Source: Prorocentrum cordatum
Lineage: Eukaryota
DNA length: 64,000 nt
Direction: 5' to 3'
Assembly: GCA_963575745.1 (NCBI GenBank)
Contig: CAUYUJ010000078.1
Location: 1-64,000 of the forward strand
Under the pieces are notes generated by a model. It did no database searches and was not told the origin of the DNA. It saw nothing but the letters and a program-made list of their open reading frames with translations. Shown here piece by piece: positions 11,446 to 52,390 of the stretch. Both the position numbers and the translations under genes were made by a program. Position 1 is the stretch's first letter. The number at the start of each line of letters is the position of its first letter.

Positions 11446-11543
11446 AGCTGCCATCTGGACCCAAGAGATTGTCAGGGCAGCAGACAAACACTCACCGCCA
11501 TTCCACAGCATGTGGAGTAAGAACTAACTGGGCAGAGGCCCGC

Positions 11544-16979: not shown

Positions 16980-17345
16980 CCGCCGCAGTTGCGGATAAGA
17001 GTGAGGGGGCGGCAGGGACGTCAGGGACGTCGACAGTCTGCGTGGCTCTGAAAAGCCCGCCGCAAGCGCCTGATTCCGCAGTTGCAGATAAGAGTGAGGG
17101 GGCAGCGGGGACGTCGGCAGTCTGCGAGGCTCTGAAAAAGCCGCAGGCGCCTCATTTGCACAAATCATACAACGAGCTTGCCGCAGGCGTCGATTTTTTC
17201 GTGATGGCAGTGTGGGTGGGTCACGGGGTGGACCGCGGGTGGGTCGCGGGTGGGTCGCGGGTGGGTAGCGGGCTGGGTCGTTGGCTAGGTCGCGCGTGGG
17301 TCGCGGGTGGGTCGCGGGTGGGTCGCGGGCCAGGTCGCGGGGGGG
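16980..17345 (+). repeat. Dispersed repeat with (GGGTGGGTCGC)n; a related copy lies on the opposite strand at 50650-51420
   Basis: Both copies have CCGCAGGCG-containing subrepeats, then the GGGTGGGTCGC array, then (CAA)n. Confidence 0.7.
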
Positions 17346-18789: not shown

Positions 18790-19235
18790 CTATTCCTAGG
18801 TAATCTGTGAGGGAGTCCTAAGCGTGAGCGCGACTCCTGGGTGCCTGGGTGTCGGGAGCGCGGCGCTTGAGTAAATTTCAAGAAATTCCAACGCAAGGGC
18901 GCTATTCGTCAGTAAATTGCAAGCAAGTCTCCAGCGAGAGCGCGACTCCAGAGCGCCGGAAGAGCGATTCCGTGTACGGAAGTCCCAAGCGAGAGCGCGA
19001 TCCCGGAATAAACTGCGAGGAAGTCTCGGGCGGGAGCGGGGGTCCTGGCTAAATTGTGAGGAAGTCTCAGGCGGGAGCCGTTGTTGTTGTAACCCGGGGG
19101 CCAGGGGCACAGTTTGAACATCAAGACCTTCCCTGTCACAAAAGCAGGGTGCAAGCGTCGAGGGGCACACTTTGATTGAGAACAAAAAGTATGCACCGGA
19201 GGGGGGTCAACAATACTTACTCTTCAGAAACGATA
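18790..19235 (+). repeat. Dispersed repeat family (GCGAGAGCGCGAT...TAAAYTGYGAGGAAGTC), also at ~20110-20335, ~46470-46530 and ~47000-47470
   Basis: Shared blocks such as GGCGGGAGCCG..TGTTGT..GGCCAGGGGCACAGTTTGA at 19070 and 47005. Confidence 0.75.
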
Positions 19236-29157: not shown

Positions 29158-30714
29158 TCGTCGTCGTCGTCGTCGACGTCGTCGTCGTCGTCGTCGTCGC
29201 GGTTGGGGTCGTCGTCGTTGCGGTCGATATCGTCGTCGTCGTCGGGTGCGTCGTCGTTGTTAGGATCATCGCTGTGGTCGTCGTCTCCGCTAAATCCCTC
29301 TTGCCTCCCACCGCTTTCTCTCCCTCCTCCTCCGCCTCGTCCTTCTCCCGCTCCCACCACAAGGAGGATGTACAAGGAGGCGGGAGGAAGGAGGAACAGG
29401 GGAGATATGCGGGGGGAAGCGGACACACGCCTGAAAAACACGACTGTCGGCATGCTTCGCAAGAGTTGCTGTTTTGAGATGGGCTGGTGGGGATACGCGA
29501 AGCGTAAAGAATTCTCGACGTCGACGGTCCTGGCACCTATGCTTCGGAGGAAATGTTCTTGATTCGCCCAGGGCTCCTGGTCGCGCTGCTTCCGTTGCCT
29601 GCTGGAATCCGGATGTCTGGGATCAGTTCAGACGCCAGATGGGTCGCCCTGGACGCCCATGCTTAAATCGATAATCGGCACGTCAATCCCGAAGCTAGGG
29701 CCCACCCAGCTTCCCTGGCCCAGCAGGTTACACCAGCTTGGCCCCGCCAGGACTTCAAGGAGGCGCTCGCCAAGCTCAAGGCTACGGCAGGTCCGTGTCG
29801 TGCCGACTTCGGCGTTGGTTTCTGACACCGCGGGGATCGTTCAACCTTGAACGATCGGCCGTCTCCGCAACGTCCAAATGTTCAACATCGAACGATTCTG
29901 GGTCGCCCGCGGCGTTCAAAGTTGAACGCCGCGGGCGGGGTCGCCGCCGGTCGACACGACGCGAACCTACCGTATGGGGGCTTGCTCGTGCCCCCCCCCC
30001 CAAAATAGCCCGGGCGTCTTCCTCTGCGGCGTAGACTGGATGGGCCACCGCTCCGCCCGTGCGTCGACGCGGCCGATCGACGGCTGCGCCAGCTCAACGG
30101 AGAAGAGGCCGCGCCAGTCATTCCCAAGTCCGACCTGTTGCGGCCCCTCCGATATCGCCTCAGTTTGAGCGGCCCGTTGCCCGAGGCATAAGACTATCCA
30201 CCGGTGGCGTTCCGTCCCCGGGCAGTTTGCATCGCGCGTTTCTCGCTGGCCCTCTCAACAACCCTGTGGTCCCACGGGCCTTAAAAATAATGCCTGGGCC
30301 TTTAAAATAATGCCAGGCCTTATTTGCACATTGAACATGCTGTTTCGCGCGCGCGCGCAAACACGCGCGCGCGCACGCGCGCGCTTTAACCATGCACGAA
30401 TCCGACGGATCGTGCGGGATTTGAATCGCGATGTTGCGCTGCCGCGCCGTGGTCAACAGAACAGTGTGATAATTACCTTAGAATGTTGCGGTTGGTGGTG
30501 GTTTGGCCGCGGCTCGGATCGGAAAGCCCCCCCCCCGCACACGCACACGCACACGCACACGCACACGCGCGCGCGCACACACACAGACACGCGCACACGC
30601 GCCACCACTACCACCACCACCACCACCACCACCCACGCACGCGCGCGCACGCACGCACGCACGCACACACACAACCACACACAACCACACAATCACACAG
30701 GTACACTTAAATGA

Positions 30715-30815
30715 GCAGCAACAAGAACAACGAGAACGGCGACAACAGCAACAATCACAATCACAACACCATCAACAACACCAACCACTACAACAACTAC
30801 AACAACAACCAAACC

Positions 30816-30870
<55 letters not shown>

Positions 30871-30980
30871 GCACCAGCACCAGCACCAGCACTAACAACA
30901 ACAACACCAACACCAACAACACCGCCAACAACAACCGCAGCAACAGCAGCAGCACCAACAATAGCAACAGCGGCAACAAC
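30715..30980. repeat. (CAA)n microsatellite inside the TIR element
   Basis: Direct inspection. Confidence 0.9.
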
Positions 30981-31423
30981 TATGTGGGCTCAGCACTGGG
31001 CTTGGCCAGGGATTAGAGTTTGCTCGCGGGGCCGAGTGCTTGCAGTTTATGGGGTTGGTGTAGGCAGCTTAGCTTGGCGAGAGCTCCAGGCCCTCCGCGG
31101 GCATCTGGCAGCCGCAGATGGCGCCACTGCGCCAATGCCTTACAGAAAAGGTTCAGATATCCCCTTTTGGGTCGGGTCGGATCGGTCGGACGGGGCCCTC
31201 TCTTAGTCGTGTGATCGTATTGTTCCTTGTCCTACACCCCCGTTTCCCTTCATTCGCTGGGTTCGCCGAGAGGGCTGCGCCCACGCGGCGGGATCGCCCC
31301 CCCAAGCCGCTCGGGCCACGAGTTCGGGGTTACCATGATCGTGCCCAGACGCTTGTGGGCACGACACAATAAACAAACAAGTGTGGGTTCACTATCATCA
31401 TTACCGTCATCGCCACCATCATC

Positions 31424-31451
31424 TTCGCAACCGTTTTGGCTCTGGCTTAAG
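31424..31451 (+). other. Spliced-leader relict upstream of ORF A
   Basis: TTCGCAACCGTTTTGGCTC matches SL at 15/19 (all mismatches transitions), followed by TGGCTTAAG; ATG at 31484. Confidence 0.7.
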
Positions 31452-31483
31452 ACGCCTCCACGGAGGCATTCATAGGTTCGCAC

Positions 31484-32779
31484 ATGTCAGACGGTGAGGA
31501 AGAAAAATCGAAAGATCGCACGCGATGGCGCGGCGAACTATCAGAGTTGGTAAGCTGTTTCCAAGAGAGTGCTGACACGCATGGTAAAAGTTTTGTTCGG
31601 TACCCTGTGGAGGAGAAGATCGAAAAGGCGAAAGTGGTGGGGGATAAACTCACGCAGCCTGCCATTGTAATGCTGGTGAAGGGCGCGCTGAAACTAGATC
31701 GGCGCCTGAATTTCAAAAGGACCGACGTCGAGAATGCTTCGAAGAAGCTGTTCGACACCAATCGCGAGAAGTGGCCCCTCAAGCCAGAAGCGAAAGACAA
31801 ATACACGAACGACATGGACCATCGGATTCGATCCATCTTCTTCGTGGTATCCAAGGCAATGAACCGTGACAAGCATCCGAAATGGCTCAAGAAGGTAGTC
31901 GGCGATTCCTTGGATGATGGCGCGGACGACGATCATCAAAGTGTAAGCGGTGCATCAGGAACCCGATCGGCAACCAGTATCCAGTATGCGCACGGCTGGC
32001 ACAACGAGCTCTTCAGGGGCATGCGCCACAAGGCCAGCGACGCCAGCAGTATGGACCCCGAGCTTGCCGCGCCGACATCGCGGCCACCTGACGGTGCAGA
32101 CCCCACCGACGACTACGAGGCTACGTGGCAGGATGGGACTCGCCACAAGATCAGCGGGATCGCCGACCAGATGGTCACCGAGAGGCTGGACAGCAGGAAG
32201 TCGTCACGCTCGGACGCCGTCGTCCTCTGGAGGGGCACCCACTTGGAGCTCAATCACGACTTGGTGCTGCAGCAGAAGATCGATAGGAAGTTGCTCCTGG
32301 CTTTGCTCGAGCAGAAGAAGAAGCAAATCCTGCAAGTCGTCGTGGACAACTTTGGGCCAGTACCGCCACTTAACTCGGATGGTAAGCCTCAGGCCATCAC
32401 GGACATGAACGATCCTACGCTCAAGAAAGCGATCGAGTTCATTGCGCCTTTCTGTGAGAAGTACGCCAAGGGCAGTATCACTCCGAAGGAGCTCGACGCC
32501 GAGAAAAAGATCAAGCTCGCGGAGGTGGCCCCAGGTGGTAAGAGGGCGGCGTCGAAGAAGCCTGCTGGTGCTCCGAAGAAGAAGCCAGCTATGGCGAAGC
32601 CCCCTGACGAACCCTCGGAAAAAGAGCAGAACCCAAACAACACTGATGACGGCGAGTCAGACCAAGAAGATTCGCAGCAGAGCGACGCCGGCCTACCAGC
32701 GTCGGGCTCATCCGCAGCAGCAGCTTATCCTTCACGCATCCAGAGCATTCTAGATCAGTTTCCAGCCTCGCGCAGCTAG
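31484..32779 (+). CDS. Intact intronless 431-aa protein of unknown function (accessory ORF A of the TIR element)
   Basis: Uninterrupted ORF, protein-like composition, K-rich then acidic tail, SL relict upstream. Confidence 0.75.
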   Translation: MSDGEEEKSKDRTRWRGELSELVSCFQESADTHGKSFVRYPVEEKIEKAKVVGDKLTQPAIVMLVKGALKLDRRLNFKRTDVENASKKLFDTNREKWPLKPEAKDKYTNDMDHRIRSIFFVVSKAMNRDKHPKWLKKVVGDSLDDGADDDHQSVSGASGTRSATSIQYAHGWHNELFRGMRHKASDASSMDPELAAPTSRPPDGADPTDDYEATWQDGTRHKISGIADQMVTERLDSRKSSRSDAVVLWRGTHLELNHDLVLQQKIDRKLLLALLEQKKKQILQVVVDNFGPVPPLNSDGKPQAITDMNDPTLKKAIEFIAPFCEKYAKGSITPKELDAEKKIKLAEVAPGGKRAASKKPAGAPKKKPAMAKPPDEPSEKEQNPNNTDDGESDQEDSQQSDAGLPASGSSAAAAYPSRIQSILDQFPASRS

Positions 32780-33525
32780 TAGACCAAGCCAGGCACGAAG
32801 CACGTGCAATCTGTGCGCCCCAAAAGATCAGCCAGAACGAGCGCCCCCAAAAAAGGTCCTCCTCCTCCTCCTCCTCCTCCTCCTCCTCCTCCTCCTCTCC
32901 CAACATGTTTCAACGTAGATAGAACATGTTGCGCATTCTCAGCAACCTCTTCCTCCTCTTCCTCCTCCTCCTACCCCCCGGGACCCGCCAAAGCGAGCAC
33001 CCCAACGATCAACCAAAACGAGCGACCCCAAAGATCAGCGAAAACGAACACCCTCAAAGATCTGCTGCTCCACGGGCACCTCGAAAACTCGAACCATCAT
33101 CCAACCGTCATCCAACCATCGAAACCATCGGGCACCTCCACGCCCACCTCCTTTTGCAGCTCCCTAGCGGGTTGGGGGAGGCTCGCAATGCCCATCCCGC
33201 TGATGAAGAAAGAGGGGAGAAGGGGAAGGGAGGAGGGGGATGGAGAGAAGGGAGGAGGGGAGAGGGAGGAGAGGGGAGGAGGGGGAGGGGGAGGGAGAGG
33301 AGGGAGGAGGCGAGAGGAGGGAAGAGTGGGAAGGAGAAGGGAGCTCGGGGACAACAATTTGGGCCACGCCCCCTCATCTTCCATGAGCGCGGGGCTCTCT
33401 GAACAGAAACTGCGAAACATCCAATCCCCGTTGCAGCTCAGTTTGTAACAAACTTCGATTCTCGATTATATGATGCGCGTGTGTCCTAGCAAAGGTGGGC
33501 AGCGCCCCCAGTCTCACCACCGCCA

Positions 33526-33547
33526 CCTGTAGCCATTTGGGCCCAAG
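33526..33547 (+). other. Spliced-leader relict upstream of ORF B
   Basis: CCTGTAGCCATTTGGGCCCAAG vs DCCGTAGCCATTTTGGCTCAAG, 18/21; ATG at 33584. Confidence 0.85.
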
Positions 33548-33583
33548 ACGGCATAGGCGTTTGCTTCACACGAAGTCCGACAC

Positions 33584-35226
33584 ATGTCGAGGCAGAGGGA
33601 CACGCCTCCTTCGCCGACGGAGACGGCTCGGTCTTCCCCAGCCCACTCGCCAGAGCCCAAGAAGCAGCGCTCAGGCGAGTTGGAACTTTCCCCGCGTGCA
33701 GCTCCGAGGCACCCTTCGCCGATACACATCTCAGACCGCAGTGGATCGCACCTTGAGGCCCCGACCGAGAAGCCTTTCAATGACGCGGGCGACGCCGAGC
33801 AGCAGCGCATTGTCGCCGCGACCTTGCCAGACCCCAATGCTGAGACAGTGCCTGCCACTGAGGAGGAGGAGGAGGTGATGCTCAATCTCTTCAAGGGCAA
33901 GCTGGAGTCCATGATCGGCGCCATCGAACACAACGACAGCGGTAGGCTCGCGAGAGCACTGGGCATCGAGACTGGAGAGATGAACGAGAAGAACTTGAAG
34001 GATCACGAACATACAATCAACACATTGTCGAACACATTGGGTCAACAGAAAGACGCGGCATTCCGTGCCGCAACAACTGTACCTCGCAGGGATCAGCAGC
34101 GACTCCAGGTGATTGACGAGGCGCTCGCCAACGGCAGGGTCGAGCCACGCTCATCATTGGGAAACTACTTCAGAACCGAGTTGAAGAAAAACCCGCAGGA
34201 GGCCAAGAAGTACGCGCCCCTGAAGCAGCCCGAGGCGGACGAGTATCGCAAATAGTGGGCTGAGCGGGAGAAAGGCAAGCTGCTGGAGAAGTATTCTCAC
34301 ACTCGTACGTGGGCTCGGGTCGACACTACACAGGGCGACTACCTGAATCTCGGGCAGCTCGTCATCGACCAGGGCGGGTGGGACGACCCAGAGGCCATCG
34401 TTGGGGTTCCCAAGCTGGTCAACCAGTGCGTGAGCATGGGCGATCCGTGGGTGGCGACGCATCCACAGACGCAAAGAGTAGTGTACCTGCGCTTGAAGTT
34501 CAAATACGTCGAGACGTTCACGAAGGCATGGACATCTTTCCGAGAGGAGGCCAGTGGCGAGGGGGCTGACAAGAAGGCCGTCTCGGGCGCAGCCGCGGCA
34601 GCTGGCGCTCCCAACAAGGGCAACAGCGACGGCAAGCAGGAGAAGCAGCCCGACAAGGGCGGAAGTGCAGGCATTGCAACGCCCATGGAGAAGAAGAGGA
34701 AGGGCGGCAAGACCTCCACCAAGGAGCTGCCCAAGAACCCGAAGGCCGAAGAAGCTGCCCAAGAACCTGATGCCTTCAAAACGCTGGTGATGCAGGCTGG
34801 TGTGAGAATCGTACATAACCCTTTTTCCCCCTCCCCTTCCTCCCACCACGTCCTCTTAACCCTCCTCATCCATAGGCTAACGCCCTCAAGGAGACCCTGG
34901 TCCAGATCACTTGGAAGGCGAACCGCATTCTTGGCATGATCAATTCTTCGCCGAAGTGGGCCTGGACGAACAATTATGCGAACAAGGAGATGCTGGAGAA
35001 CCTTCTTGCTCAGCTTGAGGCGTGCCAATAGAAATCCCTTTTCATCTTGGACTTCGTCTCGCAGGACAACACCAACAGAGTGATCAACCGTGTCGAGAGG
35101 GAGCTGGCCCAGGTGGAGATGAAGAAGCTGGTCGACCTCGAGCCCAAGATCACCGCCGTCAAGAAGCACATGGACAAGCTGCTCAAGAAGCACGAGATCG
35201 AGCTGGCAGATGCGGAGGACGAGTGA
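33584..35226 (+). pseudogene. Accessory ORF B of the TIR element: two premature TAGs, one 80-nt GC-AG intron
   Basis: Frame continues past the TAG at 34253 (WAERE..GDYLNLGQ..GGW..MGDPW); intron 34796-34875 (CAG/GC..TAG/GCT) joins KTLVMQ/ANALKE; second TAG at ~35029; TGA at 35224-35226. Confidence 0.7.
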
Positions 35227-36184
35227 GGCATGGTCGTGGTGCTGAGCTCTTTAGTGGTGCTGCCGTGGAGGCACAACGATGGATGGATGTGCCTGTCGGG
35301 TTGTCGGCAGCCCGCGTTTGGACACTCTTCTCGTGCTCGTGGTCGCAGCGCTTTAACCAAGAGGGGTAACCAACGCCACGATGAAAAAAAAGCCCGACTC
35401 GAAACCATGACGAATCCAGCCCGATGTCACGATAGCAATGGAAAAACAACAACATTTGAACTGGAACGACCAAATAAAACTATCGAAAAACATTGTTGAG
35501 GAAACTATTGAGCAAACTATTGAAATATCGATATTAGCTGTAAAAACACAGGGTATGACCACCCACACAAAAAAAATGAAGAAACTATTGAAACAATCGT
35601 TGAACTATTGAGGGGCTTATTCTAAGGCCGGTAGCCCTCCGTCGGTCAAGTCTCCGCAGTTTTCTTCGGAGTCAGCCACGTGGACAGCTTAGCGTTACTG
35701 TGGGGGCTGAGTTTAGTGCTCCGTTGTGTTTGTTTGCTGCTCTCGGTGGAGAGGGTGTTGAGAGAGAGGCAAGAACGCCTTCTCGAAGTCTTCAGGGGCG
35801 CTGCGCGGGCATATCGGGATTGCCCATTTTTGCAGACAATCACCTCCTCCCGCCCCTCCGCATTCTGCTCTCGCCCTCCTCCTGATGATCCCCCCCCGCC
35901 CCGCAAGTAAGCAAAAACAGAGGGGGAGTGGAAGGGGGGGACGAGGAGGGAGACGAGGAGGCGAGGTGGAGGAGGGGGAAGGTGGAGGAGGAGACGAAGG
36001 GAGAGGTGGAGGACGCAGCACTCACACGCCGCGTGCGATTATGAAGTGAGACAGGCCGGGGGGGGGATATCCACATCTTGTTCGGTGAATGCTCGTGCAG
36101 CTCGTCAGAAATACTCTAGGAACATCCTGGCCCCCTCTGTAGTCCAGCACGACCGGGGTAACGCTGTACACTGACAGCCCCAGT

Positions 36185-36815
36185 AGGAGGAGGAGGAGGA
36201 GGAGGAGGAGGAAAAGGAGGAGGAGGAGGAGGAGGAGGAATGGGAGGAGGAGAGAAGGAGGACGAAGATGGCGGCGGGGGAGAGAGGAGGAGGAGGAGGA
36301 GGAGGAGGAGGAGAGAGGAGGAGGAGGAGGAGCAGGAGCAGGGCAGGAGCAGGAGCAGCAGAACAGGAGGCGGAGGAGGCCAGAAACAGCGATGGAAAGT
36401 GAGACGCAATAAACCGACCCCTTTTGACTGAACGGGGTCGGTTTCTGCTCCTAGGAGAAAAAAGAGAGGAGGAGGAGGAGGAGGAGGAGGAGGAGGAGGA
36501 GGGAGGAGGAGGAGGAGAAGAGGAGGAGAGGAGAGGAGGAGGAGGAGGAGGAGCATGGCGATGGGGGACGACGGAGGAGGAGGAGGAGAGGAGGAAAAGG
36601 AGGAGGAGGACGTTGGCCAATCCAACCATCCTTATCGGCAAGGGCCGCCATGGGGGCGGATACCGCTCCGATGAGGGGGGGGGGGGCGGGGGGGAAGCTC
36701 AACGACACGTCTAGAAGTGTGGAGGAGGAAGAGGAGGAGAGGAGGAGGAGGAGGAGGAGGAGGGAGGAGAGGAGGAGGAGGAGGAGTAGGAGGAGGGGGA
36801 GGGGGAGGAGGAGGA
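36185..36815. repeat. (GGA)n-rich low-complexity tract
   Basis: Direct inspection. Confidence 0.85.
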
Positions 36816-37143
36816 CTGACTGAGAACCAGGAGAACAAGGGAGAGGCGATGACGGCGACAAGAGAGCAGCCAAGAGGCGGATCCAGCCGTGGCGACCAGA
36901 AGCGGATCCAGCCGTGGCTCTGCGGATCCAGCCGCGGCGACGATCCCGCCCCAGTGGAACACTCTGAGTCCTCATCCAGCCGTGGCGACGATCCCGCCCC
37001 AGAGAAACAAACACAAAAGCAACAAACGGCACGAAACAAAAACGACATACGGCACGAAACACCAACGAACAACGAAACGAACAACAAAACGAATGCCAAC
37101 ATCAAACTAAACAACGTTGTCCTCGGTCCTTGAAGACGTGCCG

Positions 37144-37165
37144 CATGTAACTATTTTGGCTCAAA
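37144..37165 (+). other. Spliced-leader relict upstream of the transposase
   Basis: CATGTAACTATTTTGGCTCAAA, 16/21 with a perfect ATTTTGGCTCAA core; ATG at 37214. Confidence 0.8.
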
Positions 37166-37213
37166 GCCCAGCTTGGTGCGGGCCTAGCTTAGCGATCGAG
37201 CTTGGCCTTCCCC

Positions 37214-39210
37214 ATGGAGTGGGAATCGGACGCCCGTGGCTCGTCGGATGGCGGCGCCGACTGGGAGTCTGCTTCAGCCGCCCATGCAGATGAAATGGAC
37301 GACGTGGCAGGGCGTAGCGATGCTGGGGATTCAGATGCTCGGTGTAGCGAGGCTAGAGACTCCGATGTGGAGAGGTCGGCAGGCAATATGTTTGTCGACT
37401 GCTGCTTGGGCCTGCTCCTGGCCAGAGATCTCACGTTCAAGAGCTTCTGCATTATTATGTGGCTGGCTGGGCGAGCTGGGATTTCGGAGGCCGAGCAATA
37501 TGGCAGGTCACCAGGTTGCAAAAGTGGTCATTACGCGAGACACTGCAAAAGGAAATTCGGAATCTGGGGCGATCGAAGTGCCATGTACGAAATAATTGTG
37601 CCTGGTCGGAAGCGGCGTCAAGTGGGTAGAGTTCCAGTCAAATTCAGCCCCTGTCCAGGGCACGAGCTTCTGCAACAAGATTTGGTTGACAACCCACAGA
37701 CTCTTGATGTGCTGCAGCGCCAAATTTGCCAGGGGAAACTGCCGCAATGCTACGTTGAGAACTCTGTTGTGCGGCAGCATGCGTGCGCGCCAGTTACCCC
37801 ATTAGCTTTATTCGGCGATGGCCTGCCATACTCACAAAAGGACTCGCTCATCGGATGGTGGATCGTAAACTTGATCACAGGGAGGAGGTACTTGTGCGCA
37901 GTATTGCGCAAGGCCATGGTATGCCGCTGCGGCTGTCTAGGTTGGTGCACCATGCATTGTTTATGTTTTTTTTTTTGTTTTTTCAGGTGGGAGTTCGAGT
38001 GTTTGGCGAGGGGCGAGTTCCCTCGAACCCGCCATGACGGGTCCGACTGGTTAGACAGCGATGCCTATCGAAAGGATCAGGCAGGACTCCCCTTGAAGGC
38101 CCTGCCTGCCTCCTCTACATAGAAGGGGGTTGGGCAGAATATGCATCTTCGCTTGGGTTTTCCCACTTGGGGCGATTCCCTAAGACCTTGCATATGGTGC
38201 AATGCAAAATTGCTCAACTTGTTTAACATTGCTGGCGTTACAGATACGTCAAGCGGTTGCTTTCGGGAAAATACACCGCTTGATTATGAAGTTGCATGCT
38301 CTCGATGTGAGCGACTCGTCGTGCTCTCCCCTAGTGACCACGCGATACTCGTCGCTTCACTAGAATATGATAAGCGGGACGGCGGGCCAAGAGGCGCGGC
38401 TGTCACGAGAGACCTGCCGAGCTTGGGGCTTCGCGCAGGGATGCGGGTGGAGCCATCCATATTTCTTTCAGATGTAGAAGAAGTGTTCTCTATCACCACC
38501 CTCCCCCCCCCCCCCCCCCAGTTCTATGTTGGGAGCGTGGCAACGAGTCCATGACATGGCATCGCAATCCTATGTTCGATGCACCTTGCTCGCATATTGG
38601 CATCACGGCAATGGGGGTGATGACCATCGATTCCTTGCACTGCCTGTATTTGGGAGTATTCAGAAATTTCGTAGCTGTACTTGTGTGGTTTTTTTTGTTA
38701 TGGGCGGATGGTGGAGCGCCGCGCATGGCGCGATTGAAGAGCGGATCGAGGCATCCCTCATGATGTTTCGCAGTCGATTGATGTCATGGTATAAGCAAAG
38801 GCGGGCCCTTCGACCAAACGAGGTCCTCACAGAAGTTGGAGACATCAGTCGAAGCATGACTGGTGGCAGCCAGTCGGGAACTATTTCGTTCAAGGGAGCT
38901 GAAGCGCGGGGCGTCCTGCTGTTTCTACTAGATGAGCTTCAAGCAAGTCGCATGTCTCATCGTTACTTGTCTGCTGGGCGAGCATTGGAGCAACTCGTCG
39001 AATGTTGGGGTTCAGATGGGTGGCGATTGACAAGCGAACAGGTGCTGGCAAGTTTCCGACATTTTAACACATTTGCGAGTCTCACATCAGACGTCCCAGA
39101 GTTAGAAATACCCAAGCGTCATTTGTTTGCTCACATGGTGCGGCATTTGCGATGGTTTGGCAACCCTCGTTTTTACGCGAACTGGACCAACGAGTCCAAC
39201 ACCAAACGTG
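37214..39210 (+). pseudogene. EnSpm/CMC-like DDE transposase, frameshifted
   Basis: PLALFGDGLP, CRCGCLGWCT, YIEG(G)WAEY (KGDW-like), RPCIWC, IDSLHCLYLGV (DxxH), IPKRHLFAHM, GNPRFYANWTNESN; frameshifts near 38100, 38160, 38520 and 38700. Confidence 0.75.
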
Positions 39211-39690
39211 CTGAATTCGGTCAACCGACAAATGGCAGACCGCGATCAAGGCGGCCGCTAGCGTCGCTGCAAACACTCGGCGGGAGTAGGAAGAGGATAG
39301 GAGAAGGAGGAGGAGGAGGAGGAGGAGGGGGGGGGAGAGGAACAACTATACGAAACAATGGAAGGAGGTCGTCGATGTGTGTTTCTTGTGTTTGGGAGCC
39401 CTGGGGAACCTGGGGCACGGCCCTGGGCGCTGGGCGAATGTTTTTTTTGTTTGGGCGAGGCCCTGGGACAAGTGGGGCGGGAGGACGGCGACGCCGACGA
39501 TGGCGGCGACACCTCCTTTCCCACGCCGTGGAGCACGGCTCGGCTCGTGGACGGCACCTTCGCGCACGAAATCGCGGGCCCCGCCGCGAAGGAAGGAGGG
39601 CGAGGGGGAGGAGGAGGAGGAGGAGGAGGAGGAGGAGGAGGGGAGGAGGAGGAGGAGGAGGATGAGGAGGGGGAGGAGGAGGAGGAGGAG

Positions 39691-42600
39691 TCTCGTCTCG
39701 TCTCGACCCCATTCAAGCAAATCTCCATGGACGGCGATGGCTGCTCTGGGTTGGGGTTGACATCTGTGTCTCCCCTCTCTCAAACTGCTGTGCGCGGGAG
39801 GCCTGCTGCGCGGCTGGCGCAGGCGACATGCGCCTCGATTGGCGCCCGCACGGGGGGCGCGCTAACGGGGCGCCCGCCAGACGGGGAGAAGCGTTACTCC
39901 AGGAAGTCCGAGAGCAGAAAAACGACCCATTTGGAACGAAAGGGGTCGTTTTCTATGATTGCGAAAAAAAGGCACGAGCGACTTCCTCCTCGGCATCATT
40001 GAGGTCAGGTGGGGCCGCGCTGCCAGTGTTGGAGCTGCTTCCAAACAGGCGACGAGGTGGGCGAGCGCTGCCCGAGGTCACGGACGGGCGGGGGGACCTA
40101 GGAGGACTGTCTAAACCAGGCGGTGGCCTCACTCGATGGAAACTCACTTGCCCTTCCTGCCGCCTCCGATGCGCCTGGCCAAGTTCCCCCTCGGTGCCTT
40201 GTTGACTAGGTGGCGGCCTCCTGCCGCGCGCATCTGCTCCGCTAGGAGCAGGTCGATGTCGATCATGTACCCCTTCATCTGGTAGACGGTGGTGGGGGTC
40301 TCGTTGGGGCTCACCTGCTTGATCGCGTCGTCGGCGCCATCGAGCGCTGCCATGAGCTTCTCGTGATCCGCCGCTTCCGCGGCCATGAATATCTGTCCTT
40401 TGAGGCTGAAAGTAAGGCGTGACTTCTGGGCCTTGCCTGGCGCGTCGTAGGTTGGGTTGGCCACCATCTCCTGGATCCATGTCTGCGCTGTCGTGGAGCC
40501 CCCGACCTCGATCATCCTCTTGAGGCGCTTGATGCACATCGTGCAGGCGGCCCTCCGCTCTGAGGTACCCTTGTACTCGTAGCTGCTCAAAACGTCGAGA
40601 ACCGCGAAAGCACTCTGGCACGCGGGGGTGGCGTGGTCCTGCTGGGGGTGGTCCTTCTGCTGCTTGAGGAACCGCTGGAACGCGGCGTTGCTCTCTCTGA
40701 TGCACGGGTGGTTGCGATCGAGGAGCACGGTGGTGAACCCCTGGTGCTCGATGGCGCGCATCCTGGCCTCGAGCTGGTACACCAGGTCGCGAAGTGGGCC
40801 TGCTGTCTCCTCGCTGTCGTCCATGCCCTCGTCCTCGTTGCCGTTGTGCTTCCTCTGCTTGCGCTTCTCCTGACGGTCTGTCCCGCTCCCCTTCTTGTGT
40901 AGGATCCAGTCGGCTGCGGGCGCGGATGCGGCCGCCTCGCCACTCCCTCGCGCCGCCATGGCCAACTCCCTGAGGCTCTCGAACGTGGAAACTGGGCGGG
41001 AGGTGGCGCTTGATGTGTGCGGCAGCGTGATCGAGATAGCTGGCTAAGGAGTCTTGTTCCTCGAAACAGACAGGGCATTCCAGGCTCTTGGGTTCGATCA
41101 TTTTGTCCCCGTATCTCACTCGGTTCTTGGGGCAATAATTCCGTCGCATGCTTGCCGCCACGTGGTGCACTGCGCTGGCGCGATCACGGAAGACGCTCTG
41201 ACAGATCGGACACACGTTGGTTATAGTGAGTACTCGGCCGATGTGCAACTGCCCATGCGACCCCCCTCGAGAATTGGCGACGCGCGCGACCAACTGTTTC
41301 CTACTGGGCCAGCAAGTCCCGCATATCATGCCATCGTCCCACGTCTCCTGGCACACGAAGCTGCCCTCCCCCCTCTCCCTGTCCTTCTTCCTCTCCTCAT
41401 CCTGTCCAGTGTAGAACACCGACCTGAGCTCATCAACATCTATCTTGACAAACTGATCTGGATCGTCGAACAATATGGTGTGAATGTTGTTGTTAGTGAT
41501 GAGTTCCTGCCCGCTCTCCGTCTCGCGCAACGCCAGGATGTCCTGCTGCGCTTGTCGCGCCCATGGGTTGCTGTTCTCATGTACGTAGCCCTCGCGAAAC
41601 ACCCCCCCCCCCCCCCATCGCATATCATACTGCCAAAGACTGCCGACAAGTATTGTGCATGATACTCTTTTCGAGCAACCATTGTCCGAAGCCATTTAAG
41701 ACGCCTGATCCGAAGCTCCAAGAATAGACTGGCCATTCTGAACTTCTTAAGAACCTGCAGGTTGCTATCCGTGATAATGTGCGTGTCATGCTCGTTCATG
41801 CGTGCAGTACCTTGTAGCATGCCTCTACATTTACTCAGTATGTAGCTCTGATGTGGCTGGAGGTCTCGTGCGCGCAGCGGGCCTCCCTCATGGACACATA
41901 CCTCCAGTCCTGACAGCGCGGCGTTCACGAGAAGTCCTTTTACGACGTTCCTCTTGACGGCGAACGGGGCATCACTAGACCAAAACCCTCCCATACTGTG
42001 AAATCCTGCTTTTAGAGCTGCAAGTCGCTTCTGAAGTTCGGGAAGGGGGGAGAAGGTAGACGACTGGAGGCCTCCAAGATACCTGACATGGTGAGCGACT
42101 TTGCCGTCTAACCGATGTTTGTCCCTGGAGAAGACCCTGTTTGTGGCATGCGCCCCCCACCCAGCCAGATAGCACACGTTTTCCTCTTTCTCTAGATTCT
42201 GAGACGCGCCTATCTCGTGTAGTCCAGTGTCGAGCGCTGTGTTCTCGATGGTACCTCCTCTCTCCAACTGCTCCTGCATGCTGCCCTCCCCAACCTCTAA
42301 GACCTTGGTGGCGATATCATCTACGAAGCCCGTGATGCCTACCTGCTCCTCTTCCGCTGGCCACGGAGGACTCGTCTCCAGGACGACGTGCCACTGGTTC
42401 TCTAATGCCGCATCAGCATATCTTGCGAACGGGGGGAGATAGGTCCTGTTGAACAACTTCGCAGCGCCTGTGTCCCCTGGAAAGACGCCCCTGGTGGCCC
42501 GCATCCAGAAGTCCCCTGACTCATCCGAGATGTTAACTAAATTGCGCTTGACCCGATCTGTGATGAACTGATGGTCCTGGGGGTCGTAGCAGTCTTGCGC

Positions 42601-43850
42601 CGCCTCTAGAATGCTTTCCTGATGCAAGCTGTAGAACGCGTTGACGGCATCGTGACATCGAAGCAGGTGCGACACCCCTCCAGCTTGCAGACGATACGAC
42701 GACACGAGCTGGACGCCCATGGCTTCCCCCCTCCGTCTCCCGCTTATCCCTCCATATATCCACGACGGTGCTGTCCACTGAGGGCTCTTCCTCCGCAGGA
42801 GAGAGGCGTTGCATGTGCGGCCAAGCGTGCACATCATCATGATCAACCGCTCACCGTCACACTCCACTTTGCGGTTGCACTTCGGGATCCTAGCAGCTTG
42901 CGCACAGCGCCAGCGAACGGGCGTGCGACTCGTGCGGCGGCACCCTGCGAGCAGGGCCTGGAGCATTCCACGCGTGGTCGGGATCCTGGGAAGCTCCTGA
43001 TTATACCCAAGGCCCATGAGAGTCACTGGCTTCCTGTCGTTCATTTTGTGCGGGAAGAAAACGAGTCGCAGGCACTCGGGGGGAACGCTCCACACAGGCC
43101 ACGATCTCCAGAATTTCAATTTCCATACGGTGGTGGACATCTCCCGCCAGTCTTCCGCTGCAAGGTACGCCGCTGCACTGTCTTCCATGCGCTCCCGTCG
43201 CTCATCTCTCATGTCCTGAACGGCCTGCTCTACTGTGTAGGAGATCGCTCGGCACCCTCCTCTATCAGGTTCAAGTTTCAACCGTTGCGCCCACGCACAG
43301 GCCGAGGCAGCTGATCCTGGCACCACCGCAAACCTTCTCTGTCTCGGCCCCCGGCGCTTTCCAGCGATGAGTCTCGCGAGTTTTTGAACCAAGTATCCGT
43401 TTTGGTCCTTGAGGGCCTGAGTCATTTCGGCACACCGTCTCTTCTGGATCTGCTCCCAGTACGCACGTGCAGTATCCTTGAGCTGCTTGCTGATGGTGCG
43501 TATGCGCGTGCTCATATCGTTCACAATGCTGGCGTCGCCGTCGACATGTGCGTGCTCCTCCTTGTATCTCCTCCTCCTGGCCAATAGTGTGCGCAACTCA
43601 GCTGCATGTGCTTTGCGATCTTCCGTGTAGAGAGGGCTGTCTCGCAACGCGTCGGCAACGGCTTCATTCAACGCGTTGATGAGCAACGTGTTCATTGTGT
43701 CTATATCCTCCGTCCTCTGGGTCTCAGCGAACTCCTCCCCCTTGCTCTCCGCCGCCTCCTCCATCTTCCTAAGCACCTCCTGACGCATGTACCCTACCTG
43801 AACGCACTGATACAAGGCTTCGCGGTTTGCCCGTGGACGAGCAACCCTCG
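39691..43850 (-). mobile_element. 5'-truncated non-LTR retrotransposon (LINE B) nested in the TIR element
   Basis: RT: YGGISGRRR, HDAVNAFYSL, GVFPGD, GFVDDI, VRYLG; C2H2 fingers (CPICQSVF..HHV, CPVC..H..H); frameshift near the C-run at 41600-41640; (GAGAC)3 tail; (CCT)n on both sides in element orientation; no endonuclease domain left. Confidence 0.88.
40144..40959 (-). CDS. Extra 271-aa ORF overlapping the 3' end of the LINE B RT ORF (+1 frame), function unknown
   Basis: ATG at 40959 (MAARGSGE), ends GGRHLVNKAPRGNLARRIGGGRKGK*; same position, frame and C-terminal APRG motif as in LINE A. Confidence 0.75.
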   Translation of the reverse strand: MAARGSGEAAASAPAADWILHKKGSGTDRQEKRKQRKHNGNEDEGMDDSEETAGPLRDLVYQLEARMRAIEHQGFTTVLLDRNHPCIRESNAAFQRFLKQQKDHPQQDHATPACQSAFAVLDVLSSYEYKGTSERRAACTMCIKRLKRMIEVGGSTTAQTWIQEMVANPTYDAPGKAQKSRLTFSLKGQIFMAAEAADHEKLMAALDGADDAIKQVSPNETPTTVYQMKGYMIDIDLLLAEQMRAAGGRHLVNKAPRGNLARRIGGGRKGK

Positions 43851-44062
43851 CAGGAGGAGGAGGAGGAGGAGGACGCAAGGAGGAGGAGGAGGAGGAGGAC
43901 GCAAGGAGGAGGAGGAGGAGGAGGAGGAGGGGGAGGGGGAGGAGGAGGGGGACGGGGGGGGGGGAGGCGGTGGGGGGGGGGCGAGGAGGGGGGGAAGGGG
44001 GGGCGGGATGGGGGGGGAGGAGGAGGAAGAGGAGGAGGAGGAGGAGGAGGCCGCTTCTCCTT

Positions 44063-44098
44063 ACCGTAGCCATATTGCTCAAAGCCATGTGGTTCAAA
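44063..44098 (+). other. Tandem spliced-leader relicts
   Basis: ACCGTAGCCATATTGCTCAAA followed by GCCATGTGGTTCAAA; the first 11 nt are identical to SL. No convincing ORF downstream. Confidence 0.8.
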
Positions 44099-44816
44099 TG
44101 TGTTCCAACTCTGGCGTTCAATCCACGATTGCTCTTCTGCGAGACCAGAGTGGGCGGCGCGCGTCCACCACGGCGGGCGCGCGCAACAAAAGCTCCAGCA
44201 CGACAGTGCTTTCAACCAGGGTATATTACCCACAATCTACACGACGAGCGAAAATTCCAACACGGCCCGCTCCCCGACCACTTGGGCGTTCAACCGCTAC
44301 AATCAGCTGCAGCTCCAAGGCAACGGCGTTTTCGCCCACAGCGCGCTCACCAAAAGCCAGCGGTAGTTCCAGCACGACGGTGTCTCCATTCACTGGAAGT
44401 CCACTTGCTGGGGGTGCGTCCCGCCGCCGTTCCAACGCAACGCCATCCACGGCCCCTCGGGGCCCAACTGTTGCGAGAGGGGCGACGCCTACGGAAGACA
44501 ACGGGCTTCACACCACCCCTTGGCCGCGCAGCGCGCATGGGGCGGTCGGCGCGCGCGCCCGACTGCGCAAACACCCCCCGCAATAGCGCAACGCATTCCA
44601 ACCGGCGACGTGGATTCACATCGGACGCGCGTGCAACGCGCGCCCATGTGATCACGGCCAACATAAGCACACGCACCAAACGTCCGCAACATGCGGATGT
44701 AATTCGCTGTTGCGTTTCATACGGGCATTAATTCGATACGCCGTTCACGTGCTTAGATTTCAAGGCGTTATTATAATGCCTGGGGCCTTAGATCTAAGGC
44801 CCCTGGGACCACAGGG

Positions 44817-46100: not shown

Positions 46101-48049
46101 CAGAAGAAGCACTTCAACTGAAAAAATCAATGGTTGCCGGAAGGGGGGAACCAACAATTCTCATCCTTGATAAATGAGACTTCAACAAACGACAAAAACA
46201 CCAATAATTTGAGACCGCGCACTCTTATCTGATCCCTAACGCTCGGCACTCGCCCTTTGCGTTTTCGATCATGCCCCCCTCGGGAGCATCTCTTCCGAAC
46301 CTGCCACGCGAATGCAGTGCAGCCTCTAAGGCAGCGGAAGAAAAGGCGGATGAAGGGGCGGGAAGGACGGAACACAAGAGAGAAACTAGCAGGAGATGGG
46401 CTACCAGCAGAAAACACGCGTGGCGCCTGAAGAAACTGCAAGGGTGTCCCACGCGAGTTCGTGATTCCTGCGTTGAAGCATGACGAAGTCCCTCGCGAGA
46501 GCGCGATTCGGGAATAAAATGTAGTGAAATAGGAGGCGGGGGCCTTGGCTCCCGGCCCGCTCCGGCCCCAGCCCCGGCCCAGGTCCTGGCCCCGGCGCCC
46601 TCCATATCTACAACCCGTGGCCTCCCAGATGCCCTAAATGCCGAGTGTAGCTTCAAAACAGCGAACGAAGCCTGGATGTCGCCCCAAAAGGGCTCCAAGA
46701 CGCCCCGAATGGTCCTGATAGGCAACCGGCGTCGTCGTCAACATCCTCGCCATTATCTTCCTTCTTCTCCTCCTCATGATCGCCACGCTCTACTCGCCCC
46801 TGCCCTTCCTTCGTGCCCACCCCCCTCCACCTGCACACGCGACCCTGCTCTCCCAAATTTCCTCCTATTAATTTCCCCCCTGTGATCCTACTCCTCGTTC
46901 GCCTTTTCCTCTGGTCCCCCTCCTCATTTTCCTCCCCATGCTCCGCGCCATCCTCCCCAACCTCAAGGTCGGCGGCACCGGCCGTAAGGCCTTCGCAATA
47001 GCCGGCGGGAGCCGCTGTTGTCGTAAACTGGGAGGCCAGGGGCACAGTTTGAGCAGGAAGAGTTCCCGCAGTAAAAACACAGCGAGCCCCGGGAGGGAGA
47101 AAACACGTATTCAACACGAACGCGTGAGTCCTGCATACCTCGCCAGGAAGTCTCGGGCGAGAGCTCGATTCCTAAGAAAATAACAATGAAGTCCCAAGCG
47201 AGAGCGCGAGTCCTGAATAGCCAGGGTGTGGTGCCTGGGTCATTTTCAAGGACGTCGCAGGCGAGAGCGCGATCCTTGTACAAATTGCAAAGAAATCCCT
47301 AGCGAGAGCGCGATCCCCAATAAACTGCGAGGAAGTATCAGGCGGGAGCAGTTGCTGTTGTTGTAGCCTGGGGGCCAACAACGCAGGTTGAAGAGGGTGC
47401 GAGCCCCAGGAAGGGAACTTCAATTGAAAGAACACATGTTACTGGAGGGAGTGAATCAAGAACAACTATTCGTCAGTAGTGGGAACTCACCGACAAGAAC
47501 AACATTACCAAAACGATCACCACTAAGAATATCACCATCATCACATGAACACCCCCATCGCCAACATCTTCACCACCATCATCACAACCACCATAGCCAT
47601 CACCATCATCATCCGCTGCAGTATCGCGATCGCATTCATCAAGCGCATCATCCACATCAGCATCACCATCATCATCCACTTATTCACATTATTCATGTTT
47701 CTTCTGCCCCCGGAGCCTCCTCCCACCTCCTCCTTCTCCTTATCCATCGGCGGCCACAAATTGCCGAAAAACTGAAAGCCGACCGAACCGATAACGAAAC
47801 CAAATCCGATCGAAACCAAATGGGCGCCTGCATAACCGAATTAAGCCGACCAAAACCGACCGAACGCAAAAATCGAAGCGACGCCGAAGACAGAACCGAT
47901 GCGAAGCGACGCCGACGCCGAAGCGACACGAAACCGAAGCGACGCCGAAGCCGAAGCCGAAGCGACGCGACGCGAAGACCGAAGCGACGCTGAACGTAAA
48001 GGGCCGGCGCGCGTCCTTTGAACTGCGCACGTGCCACCGCCCCTTCTGC

Positions 48050-51400: not shown

Positions 51401-52390
51401 CCGCACAAGCGCGGCGGCGGATTCTTGCATGCCGTCTGAGCCCGCAAGGACCTCTTCACGCCCCGCACATCCACGCCAGCCCGTCCAGCAACTTTGCCCT
51501 GGCGAGTTGCCTTGATCAGAGAAGGCGGGGAGCATAAAGTGGAAAAAAGGATTGCGTTGCAGTTATCTTGGGAAAGGAGGGGGAGGCAGGATGAGTAAAC
51601 AGGGGACGAGGAGAACGTGGAAGAAGAGAGGGTGTAAGGAGAACGCGGAGAAAGAAAAGGAGGAGGAGCAGGAGGACGAGGGGGGGGAGGGGGAGGGGGA
51701 GGAGGAGGACGAGGAGGGGGAGGATGGGGAGGATGATGATGATGGACGACATGGGAGGACGATGATGGAGGCCGATGAGGGGAAGGACGACGATGGGAGG
51801 ACCATGATGAAAGGACGAGGGGGGGGAGCAGGAGGACGAGGAAGAAGAGGAGGAGGAGGAGGAGGAGGAGGACGAGGTGGAGGAGGAGGATGACGATGAC
51901 GATGAGGACGAGGAAGAGGAGGAGGAGAAGGAGGAGGAAGAGGAGGAGAAGGAGGAGGAGGAGGTGGAGGAGAGCGCCATCGACAAGGAAGGTGGGGGCC
52001 ACGAGGTCCGCCGGCTCGACGACGCCCGCGTCGCCCGCGCCCGCCCCCTCACTCTTATCCGCAATTGCGGGGTGCTACGTATTATTATTCGTCTTCTTAT
52101 TCTTCTTAATATTGATGTTAGTAGTCGGCGTCGTCTTCGTATTCGTCTTCGTATTAGTCTTCGTCTTCGTCTTCGTCTTCGTCTTCGTCTTCTTCTGCCT
52201 CTGCCTCTGCCTCTGCCTCTGCCTCTGCCTCTGCCTCTGCCTCTGCCTCTGCCTCTGCCTCTGCCTCCTCCTCCTCCTCCTCTTCCTCCTCATCCTCCCT
52301 CCTACTCCTCCTCCTCCCCCTCCCCCTCCCCCTCCTCCTCCTCCTCCTCCTCCTCCTCCTCCTCCTCCCTCCTCCTCCTCCTCCTCGAAA

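What the first reader, a model, noticed from the sequence alone, without database searches (positions are those of the whole stretch)
31424..44098. Every gene in the DNA transposon is preceded by a genomic spliced-leader relict
Seen: SL-like sequences lie about 30-50 nt before the ATGs of ORF A (31424), ORF B (33526) and the transposase (37144), plus a tandem pair at 44063, all on the plus strand. Established: SL relicts mark reverse-transcribed, reintegrated dinoflagellate mRNAs, and tandem relicts indicate repeated cycles. Inference: a cut-and-paste DNA element assembled from, or refreshed by, retrocopied mRNAs including its own transposase; or one that keeps SL-like sequences as functional trans-splice acceptors or built-in leaders.
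Basis: partly seen in the sequence, partly recalled or inferred. Interest (0 to 1): 0.85.

Follow-up and report, generated by a model that had tools for sequence, protein, structure and literature searches.

The report
Spliced-leader relicts before clustered dinoflagellate retrogenes
Three decayed copies of the dinoflagellate spliced leader really do sit just before co-oriented genes here, which marks them as reverse-transcribed mRNA copies, a well-known dinoflagellate habit, but that the genes form one DNA transposon is not shown.

Summary
Partly confirmed. Three plus-strand DinoSL relicts are real: 33527-33547, 37141-37166 and a tandem pair at 44063-44100. They score 28-31, where 40 shuffles give 0.05 windows at 28 or more. 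The site before ORF A (31431-31451, score 22) is at background by sequence; only its position argues for it.

The "transposase" (37214-39210) is a broken, intronless copy of a large unannotated family (2099 clusters, no Pfam hit). A partial model gives only weak RAG1/Transib-like matches (Z 4.0-4.6). In 64 metagenomic copies, 19 carry an SL-like site within 450 nt upstream on the gene strand, against 1 on the opposite strand and 0 in coding controls. Some leaders are perfect or tandem. This family is therefore repeatedly retroposed from trans-spliced mRNA.

ORF A and B have host-like codon usage, one Prorocentrum cordatum paralogue that keeps their adjacency, and no link to the transposase-like gene in 80 loci. 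Positions 39953-44211 hold a minus-strand reverse-transcriptase element.

A single 22-nt inverted pair (30262/44816) is the only terminal-repeat candidate, and it has no target-site duplication. Best reading: an ordinary cluster of SL-tagged retrogenes in transposon-rich DNA. The new point is a transposase-like family spreading by retroposition.

The parts
31431..31451 (+). Weak SL-like site 32 nt before the ATG of ORF A. It has an exact 9-mer TTTTGGCTC followed by TGGCTTAAG.
   Evidence: (score 22), 14 and 66: background level by sequence, suggestive only by position.
31484..32779 (+). ORF A, 431 aa, uninterrupted, no known domain.
   Evidence: the single relative P0173 (Prorocentrum cordatum) is 92% identical. 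GC3 0.69 against GC2 0.42.
33527..33547 (+). DinoSL relict (18 of 21 bases), 36 nt before the ATG of ORF B.
   Evidence: 0 of 100 shuffles match; score 31.
33584..35226 (+). ORF B. It has two in-frame TAG codons (34253-34255, 35029-35031) and an intron-like GT..AG stretch at 34802-34875.
   Evidence: P0173 aligns to 33707-34744 at 89% and has E where the window has the first TAG. GC3 0.73-0.83.
37141..37166 (+). DinoSL relict, 47 nt before the ATG of the transposase-like gene.
   Evidence: 13-mer with 1 mismatch; score 28.
37214..39210 (+). Transposase-like gene: an intronless, broken copy of a roughly 680-700 aa family. It has an in-frame TAG at 38120-38122 and frame changes at a C17 run (38503-38519) and a T8 run (38689-38696).
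   Evidence: 8 of 8 full-length relatives collinear in three frames.
39953..44211 (-). Two overlapping minus-strand ORFs of a retroelement. One is a reverse-transcriptase-like ORF (41440-44211) with motifs DAVNAF, PGD..LF and FVDD. The other is a C2H2-like ORF (39953-41695).
   Evidence: diverged paralogue at 10950-16450 on the plus strand; 27 of 30 Atlas hits are in the RVT_1 set, score 0.92; zf-C2H2_4 at E 0.0032. Pfam RVT_1 was not hit.
44063..44084 (+). Full-length DinoSL relict, the first of the tandem pair.
   Evidence: score 31.
44085..44100 (+). Second, older relict, truncated so that it begins at CCAT.
   Evidence: The form matches the truncation after nt 7 described in PMC3229502.
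30262..30283 (+). Left arm of the only candidate terminal inverted repeat.
   Evidence: E 1.9e-4 in a 2.2 kb x 6.8 kb comparison; unique pair in the window; extends to 53 nt at 72%; E 0.053 for the whole window.
44795..44816 (-). Right arm of the candidate inverted repeat, 21 of 22 bases identical to the left arm.
   Evidence: No target-site duplication beside either arm.

Best explanation
The stretch is a co-oriented cluster of spliced-leader-tagged retrogenes and retro-pseudogenes in transposon-rich dinoflagellate DNA. The closest named protein is from Prorocentrum cordatum.

Inferred mechanism, following the established mRNA-recycling model: each mRNA received the 22-nt DinoSL by trans-splicing. 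A retroelement reverse transcriptase then copied it; such elements lie in the window itself. The cDNA was integrated, leaving a leader relict 30-50 nt before the ATG.

Shown here: three relicts are real. The transposase-like gene is an intronless, now broken copy of a very large dinoflagellate family. About 30% of that family's genomic copies carry their own upstream leader relicts, some perfect and some tandem, so the family is repeatedly copied through its own mRNA.

Inferred: ORF A and B were later duplicated together at the DNA level, because a paralogue keeps their adjacency. The minus-strand reverse-transcriptase element is a separate insertion. The 12.7 kb is not shown to move as one cut-and-paste unit.
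For: - Relicts above chance.
- Canonical tandem form at 44063-44100: with PMC3229502 passages.
- Window copy collinear with 8 of 8 full-length relatives, without introns.
- Family size: 2099 clusters at E<=1e-3.
- Upstream SL-like sites (score >=24, within 450 nt) in family copies: 19 of 64 loci on the gene strand, 1 of 64 on the opposite strand, 0 of 64 and 0 of 64 in two coding controls. After merging near-identical loci the counts are 17 of 51, 1, 0 and 0. Sixteen of the 80 loci were dropped for having under 150 nt upstream.
- L022 and L029 have perfect leaders inside contigs. L011, L044 and L046/L058 have 2-4 tandem truncated relicts.
- In L036 the mRNA-sized unit lies between two (TA)n tracts.
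- 0 of 20 loci with both flanks show specific terminal inverted repeats.
- Neighbouring same-strand genes with their own SL-like sites occur in L031, L047 and L077.
- ORF A/B have GC3 0.69-0.83 and only one relative.
- Reverse-transcriptase elements are in the window.
- Base rate: relicts lie upstream of 22-23% of genes in two Symbiodiniaceae (PMC5585692 passages).
Against: - A unique inverted pair (21 of 22 bases) at 30262 and 44816 encloses all the genes and is unlikely by chance in the flanks searched (E 1.9e-4). The segment could therefore be a bounded element.
- The adjacency of ORF A and B is conserved in a paralogue, which independent retropositions would not produce.
- ORF B has an intron-like GT..AG stretch of 74 nt, unexpected in a processed copy.
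- Poly(A) remnants are weak: an A6 run after ORF A, an A8 run after ORF B, and none after the transposase-like gene. No target-site duplications were found.
- The ORF A relict is at background level.
- No parent genes could be identified, because no genome is held.
Confidence: 0.6

Rival explanations
1. A composite, 14.6-kb cut-and-paste DNA transposon (30262-44816) bounded by 22-nt terminal inverted repeats. It carries ORF A, ORF B and its own transposase as SL-tagged cassettes, acquired by capture of retrocopies or by cDNA-mediated conversion, with a later nested retroelement.
For: - The inverted pair is unique in the window and extends to 53 nt at 72%.
- An ATGTTGCG motif is shared near both ends.
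- A-B adjacency is kept in a paralogue.
- The partial model has the beta1-beta2-beta3-alpha1 start of an RNase H-like fold, with the invariant D202 on beta1.
- Six of the top 12 structural rows are RAG1, RAG-like or Transib enzymes.
Against: - No target-site duplication.
- The pair has only E 0.053 at whole-window scale, and other short dispersed repeats exist in the window.
- 0 of 80 loci place ORF A/B homologues near the gene, and 0 of 20 show specific terminal repeats.
- No Pfam transposase domain.
- Structural Z is only 4.0-4.6, below the tool's own caution level.
- The transposase-like copy is broken.
- ORF A/B codon usage is host-like.
Confidence: 0.2
2. The relicts are kept because they work. 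They would supply the TTT(T/G) core-promoter motif and an AG acceptor, so that each cassette can be expressed wherever it lands. This is compatible with either reading above.
For: - The three sites before ORFs keep TTTG or TTTTGG, while the tandem pair with no ORF behind it has lost that motif.
- The promoter hypothesis and the higher conservation of relicts near -50 to -100 are published (PMC5585692 and PMC6050394 passages).
- Many relict-bearing family copies have intact ORFs of 669-855 aa.
Against: - Only four sites, so the pattern is anecdotal.
- ORF B and the transposase-like gene are broken, so no selection is evident here.
- No expression data could be obtained.
Confidence: 0.2
3. Chance resemblance to the leader in GC-rich, repeat-rich DNA.
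For: The ORF A site and exact 9-mers are at background level.
Against: The three strong sites exceed every one of 40 shuffles at score 30 and have an expectation of 0.05 at score 28. All are on one strand. Two lie 36-47 nt before confirmed ORF starts.
Confidence: 0.03

Closest known systems
DinoSL-relict retrogenes (mRNA recycling; Slamovits and Keeling 2008, not read here, cited through PMC3229502 and PMC5585692)
   Same: - A leader relict lies tens of nt before the ATG on the gene strand.
- The tandem form is truncated at CCAT.
- The transposase-like copy is intronless.
- The frequency in the family (about 30%) is close to the genome-wide 22-25% reported.
   Different: - The cargo includes a very large, unannotated, transposase-like family.
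- ORF B has an intron-like stretch.
- No parent genes, clear poly(A) tails or target-site duplications were seen in the window.
CACTA / Mirage / Chapaev, Plavaka and KDZ-type, and Transib/RAG1-type DDE transposases
   Same: - Family consensus has DG.PYS on a predicted beta1 strand.
- It also has Cys-rich CxCGCRGWC, GDWAE followed by RPCFxCN, then DxLH and KGAETW.
- The order of these motifs recalls such transposases; that comparison is recalled, not tested.
- Weak leads: Plavaka cluster at Atlas rank 23, score 0.87; DUF4218 in 1 of 70 members; RAG1/Transib rows at Z 4.0-4.6.
   Different: - No Pfam or PDB sequence match.
- No terminal repeats in 20 loci.
- Copies look mRNA-sized and carry leader relicts.
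- Membership is not established.
Processed pseudogenes made in trans by non-LTR retrotransposon reverse transcriptase
   Same: - The units are intronless and mRNA-sized.
- Some insert in (TA)n tracts (L030, L036).
- Reverse-transcriptase elements lie alongside.
   Different: The dinoflagellate leader tag makes the 5' end recognisable. Many copies in the family stay intact.
SL-gene-specific retrotransposons of trypanosomatids (SLACS, CZAR, CRE; recalled)
   Same: A reverse-transcriptase element abuts leader-like sequence at 44063-44100.
   Different: - The relicts are on the opposite strand.
- They are not followed by a GT donor, so they are not SL RNA genes.
- The second copy of the element (10950-16450) has no leader sequence at its ends.

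Membership tests
DinoSL-relict retrogene | Relict of the 22-nt leader within 500 bp upstream of the ORF, on the same strand | tested here: met
   ORF B and the transposase-like gene. ORF A meets only the 9-mer criterion, at background level.
DinoSL-relict retrogene | In tandem relicts, the downstream one is truncated after the AG at nt 7 | tested here: met
   44063-44084 is full length and 44085-44100 starts at CCAT (rule from PMC3229502).
DinoSL-relict retrogene | No introns relative to relatives or the parent gene | tested here: inconclusive
   The transposase-like gene is collinear with 8 of 8 relatives. ORF B has a 74-nt GT..AG stretch. Parent genes are unknown.
DinoSL-relict retrogene | Poly(A) remnant and target-site duplication | tested here: inconclusive
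   An A6 run lies about 65 nt after the ORF A stop and an A8 run about 160 nt after the ORF B stop. None follows the transposase-like gene. No duplications were found.
Class II DNA transposon (terminal-repeat element) | Recognised DDE transposase domain | tested here: inconclusive
   Pfam: 0 of 12 members hit; among 70 members the only related hit is DUF4218 in 1, E 0.022. PDB profile search: 0. The partial model (pLDDT 83) has beta1-3 plus alpha1 with D202. Best long matches are RAG1 at Z 4.6 (173 aligned, rmsd 5.6) and Transib at Z 4.0 (151 aligned, rmsd 5.1).
Class II DNA transposon (terminal-repeat element) | Terminal inverted repeats | tested here: inconclusive
   One 22-nt pair at 30262/44816. 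0 of 20 related loci have specific repeats within flanks of up to 1 kb.
Class II DNA transposon (terminal-repeat element) | Target-site duplication flanking the termini | tested here: not met
   The flanks ...CTCAACAA and ACATTCCT... share no 2-10 bp duplication.
Class II DNA transposon (terminal-repeat element) | Several copies with the same ends and gene content | not testable with these tools
   No genome is held. 0 of 80 loci carry ORF A/B homologues, but few loci have more than 2 kb of flank.
Non-LTR retrotransposon (minus-strand ORFs 39953-44211) | Reverse-transcriptase domain | tested here: inconclusive
   The motifs are visible and 27 of 30 Atlas hits are in the RVT_1 set at 0.92. Pfam and PDB sequence searches gave nothing.

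The most novel reading that the evidence does not exclude
A dinoflagellate-wide DDE-transposase-like family has switched, wholly or in part, to spreading through its own spliced-leader-capped mRNA. The retained leader relict would serve as a portable promoter and trans-splice acceptor. In this genome such SL-tagged cassettes (ORF A, ORF B, transposase) may be packaged inside a terminal-repeat-bounded 14.6-kb element (30262-44816). That would be a DNA transposon rebuilt from retrocopies.
Probability: 0.15. Interest if true: 0.75.

Novelty: new member of a known kind. Interest (0 to 1): 0.42.

Why it matters
Leader relicts before genes are textbook for dinoflagellates, so the core observation is ordinary.

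The added point is a very large, unannotated, transposase-like gene family (2099 clusters). About a third of its genomic copies carry their own leader relicts, some perfect and some in tandem. If the protein is a real transposase, this is a DNA-transposon gene amplified by the retroposition machinery. It could help explain how transposase copy number and orphan transposase genes build up in these huge genomes, and where enzymes for the abundant non-autonomous elements might come from.

I found no paper describing this in five full-text searches. For those I looked at listings and at passages of six papers only.

Tried and rejected
- **Whole genome:** none is held.
- **The repeat finder on the whole window:** swamped by trinucleotide repeats.
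- **The search for homologous proteins, 'longer', with the 302-aa ORF:** none.
- **Pfam on 10 and then 7 window ORFs:** nothing except a weak zf-C2H2_4.
- **PDB sequence searches:** nothing for the reverse-transcriptase ORF, for the family profile, or for P0173.
- **The look-up of sequencing runs:** no RNA holder listed, only four small-share DNA rows.
- **Read laying:** No read evidence of any kind was obtained.
- **Profile search for names:** 18 relatives, all unnamed. Cluster look-up gave only 'hypothetical protein'.
- **Full-length structure job (A2):** Only the N-terminal 302 aa were modelled, so the second and third catalytic residues are untested.
- **Foldseek against pdb:** no match at E<=0.001; weak rows include RNase HI, endonuclease V, RAG1 and Transib. 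No family outside the VIA rows listed is excluded.
- **Viral-contig scan:** no relative.
- **The search of earlier findings:** nothing in three look-ups.
- **First count with a naive ATG call:** 13 of 63, superseded.
- **SL RNA genes:** rejected, because there is no GT donor after the leader.
- **SL-targeting retroelement:** rejected, because of the wrong strand and because the second copy lacks leader sequence.
- **16-nt repeat upstream in the L066-L080 subfamily:** not SL-derived.
- **Similarity of the ORF A and ORF B 5' UTRs:** marginal, p about 0.03.
Full report
**Observation.** I aligned the 21-nt DinoSL locally along both strands. I had recalled its sequence, and it was later confirmed in PMC5585692 (passages).
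- Three plus-strand sites stand out: 33527-33547 (score 31), 44063-44084 (score 31) and 37141-37166 (score 28). The site at 44063-44084 is followed by a second relict at 44085-44100.
- In 40 local Markov shuffles, windows at 28 or more averaged 0.05 against 9 observed (3 sites). No shuffle reached 30, against 5 observed windows.
- The strict search with up to 3 mismatches found only 33527; 0 of 100 shuffles gave a match.
- The site before ORF A (31431-31451) scores 22. Windows at 22 or more average 7.8 per shuffle, and a minus-strand site at 4809 scores the same.
- Its exact 9-mer meets the published criterion, but exact 9-mers give 7 sites in the window against a null mean of 5.2.
- So three of the four sites are real. 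The fourth rests on its position, 32 nt before an ATG that the paralogue confirms.

**The tandem pair.** The pair at 44063-44100 has the canonical form: a full leader, then a relict beginning at CCAT. That is truncation after the AG at nt 7, as described in PMC3229502 (passages). I found no credible ORF behind it. The frames are Arg-rich and show no GC3 signal.

**The "transposase".**
- ORF 37214-38122 has no Pfam hit.
- An exhaustive HMMER search found 2099 clusters at E<=1e-3 and 318 at E<=1e-30, with typical full length 670-720 aa.
- Eight of eight full-length relatives align collinearly to 37220-39210 in three frames. The copy is therefore intronless but broken. It has one in-frame TAG at 38120 and frame changes at a C17 run and a T8 run. 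The two frame changes could be assembly errors.
- The family is unannotated. Of 12 members, 0 hit Pfam. Among 70 members the only related hit is DUF4218 in 1 (E 0.022). The PDB profile search gave none, and 18 profile hits are all unnamed.
- The consensus carries DG.PYS, CxCGCRGWC, GDWAE...RPCFxCN, DxLH and KGAETW. From memory, the order of these motifs recalls CACTA, Plavaka and KDZ-type enzymes. An Atlas row at rank 23 (score 0.87) points to Plavaka.
- The full-length structure job failed.
- The N-terminal 302 aa folded with pLDDT 83. The model shows a helical domain followed by beta1-beta2-beta3-alpha1, with the invariant D202 on beta1.
- Foldseek gave nothing at E<=0.001.
- The wide structural search gave no Z of 5 or more. 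Its longest alignments are RAG1 (Z 4.6, 173 aligned, rmsd 5.6), a RAG-like enzyme (Z 4.1, 177 aligned, rmsd 6.3) and Transib (Z 4.0, 151 aligned, rmsd 5.1). These three protein types make up six of the top 12 rows.
- This is a coherent but weak lead. I call the gene transposase-like, not a proven transposase.

**Relicts across copies.** A metagenome scan matched 595 stretches, of which 144 encode relatives; 80 loci were kept.
- At score 24 or more, SL-like sites number 26 on the gene strand and 7 on the other strand in 216,630 nt.
- Sixteen loci had fewer than 150 nt before the first aligned residue and were dropped. Of the remaining 64, 19 have such a site in the 450 nt upstream on the gene strand. 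The comparison figures are 1 on the opposite strand and 0 and 0 in two coding controls.
- After merging near-identical loci the counts are 17 of 51, 1, 0 and 0.
- L022 and L029 carry perfect leaders with 0.8-1.8 kb of other sequence upstream, so these are not transcript ends.
- L011 has four tandem truncated relicts, L044 has three, and L046/L058 have two.
- The copies are only 30-45% identical in protein, yet some leaders are perfect. The retropositions must therefore be recurrent and recent in several lineages (inference).
- In L036 an mRNA-sized unit lies between two (TA)n tracts.
- Of 20 loci with a near-complete gene and both flanks, 0 show specific terminal inverted repeats. Three show only self-complementary repeats.
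- The family's rate of about 30% is close to the 22-23% of genes with relicts in two Symbiodiniaceae genomes (PMC5585692) and the 22-25% of transcripts reported in PMC3229502.

**ORF A and ORF B.**
- ORF A has one relative among 5.8 billion proteins. It is P0173, 'unnamed protein product, partial [Prorocentrum cordatum]'.
- P0173 fuses ORF A residues 1-342 (92% identity) with ORF B (window 33707-34744, 89%). It has E where the window has its first TAG.
- So the A-B adjacency exists in a second locus, and the window probably comes from that species or a close relative.
- Both ORFs have host-like codon bias: GC3 of 0.69-0.83 against 0.51-0.60 for the transposase-like gene.
- ORF B also has a second in-frame TAG (35029) and a 74-nt GT..AG stretch with a pyrimidine tract (34802-34875).
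- No homologue of ORF A, ORF B or the retroelement ORFs occurs in the 80 loci. Few of those loci have more than 2 kb of flank.
- Same-strand neighbours with their own SL-like sites occur in L031, L047 and L077. Arrays of SL-tagged genes are therefore not special to this window.

**Surroundings.**
- Positions 39953-44211 hold two overlapping minus-strand ORFs.
- The larger one shows reverse-transcriptase motifs. Its Atlas neighbourhood is 27 of 30 hits in the RVT_1 set.
- A diverged paralogue of this element lies at 10950-16450 on the plus strand.
- A copia-type RVT_2 ORF lies at 60078-62876 on the minus strand.
- The window is therefore transposon-rich, and it holds candidate sources of reverse transcriptase.

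**Is there a bounded DNA element?**
- Comparing the flanks found one non-repetitive inverted pair, at 30262-30283 and 44795-44816. It matches at 21 of 22 bases, with E 1.9e-4 for the 2.2 kb by 6.8 kb searched.
- The pair is unique in the window and extends to 53 nt at 72%.
- It encloses all the genes.
- At whole-window scale its E is 0.053, and other short dispersed repeats exist.
- There is no target-site duplication.
- The motif is absent from the 80 loci, which come from other organisms.
- I keep this as a rival reading at about 0.2.

**Verdict.**
- The core is the known mRNA-recycling phenomenon.
- The claim of a single multi-gene cut-and-paste element is not established.
- A functional role for the relicts, as proposed in PMC5585692 and PMC6050394, could not be tested.
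- Five full-text searches listed no paper on leader relicts before transposase genes. I read passages of six papers, no supplements and no whole texts. The word stem 'transpos' occurs 0 times in PMC5585692 and once in PMC12014239.

Noticed in passing
window 36415-36440 and 39923-39948: Two related hairpins (CGACCC..GGGTCG), 78% alike over 46 nt, each followed by an A-run. The second lies just 3' of the stop of the minus-strand C2H2-like ORF. They may be a retroelement 3' end motif. The pattern matched 2 times against 0.24 expected.
   Followed up: partly
window 34253, 35029, 38120: All three in-frame stops in ORF B and the transposase-like gene are TAG. The first is E (GAG) in the paralogue P0173. 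This is too few cases to suggest read-through.
   Followed up: no
window 16968-17012 (and 17076-17103) vs 52041-52082; 18983-19090 vs 47296-47361: A stronger inverted pair (45 nt, 91%, E 2e-7) and a direct repeat pair bracket a roughly 35-kb span that contains the whole finding. These may be dispersed repeats or the ends of a larger unit.
   Followed up: no
window 60078-62876 (-): ORF of 933 aa with a copia-type reverse-transcriptase domain (RVT_2, E 2.2e-8).
   Followed up: no
window 10950-16450 (+): Diverged paralogue (26-29% identity) of the minus-strand reverse-transcriptase and C2H2-like ORF pair. No leader relict lies at its ends.
   Followed up: partly
L036 311-338 and 2517-2544; L030 5-35 and 2492-2523: Family copies sit between (TA)n tracts on both sides, as if inserted into a TA microsatellite.
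   Followed up: partly
L066-L069, L071, L075, L076, L079, L080: A subfamily that is 93-99% alike over about 3 kb. L066 loses homology 216 nt before the ATG, next to (TGTGTC)n, while the others continue to about -365. That suggests different insertion sites.
   Followed up: partly
window 31431-31451, 33527-33547, 37141-37166 vs 44063-44100: The three sites that precede ORFs keep TTTG or TTTTGG, the proposed core-promoter motif. The tandem pair without an ORF has lost it.
   Followed up: no
window 33200-33330, 35900-36800, 39290-39690, 43850-44050: Each plus-strand gene is followed by long GGA/GAG-type purine microsatellites.
   Followed up: no
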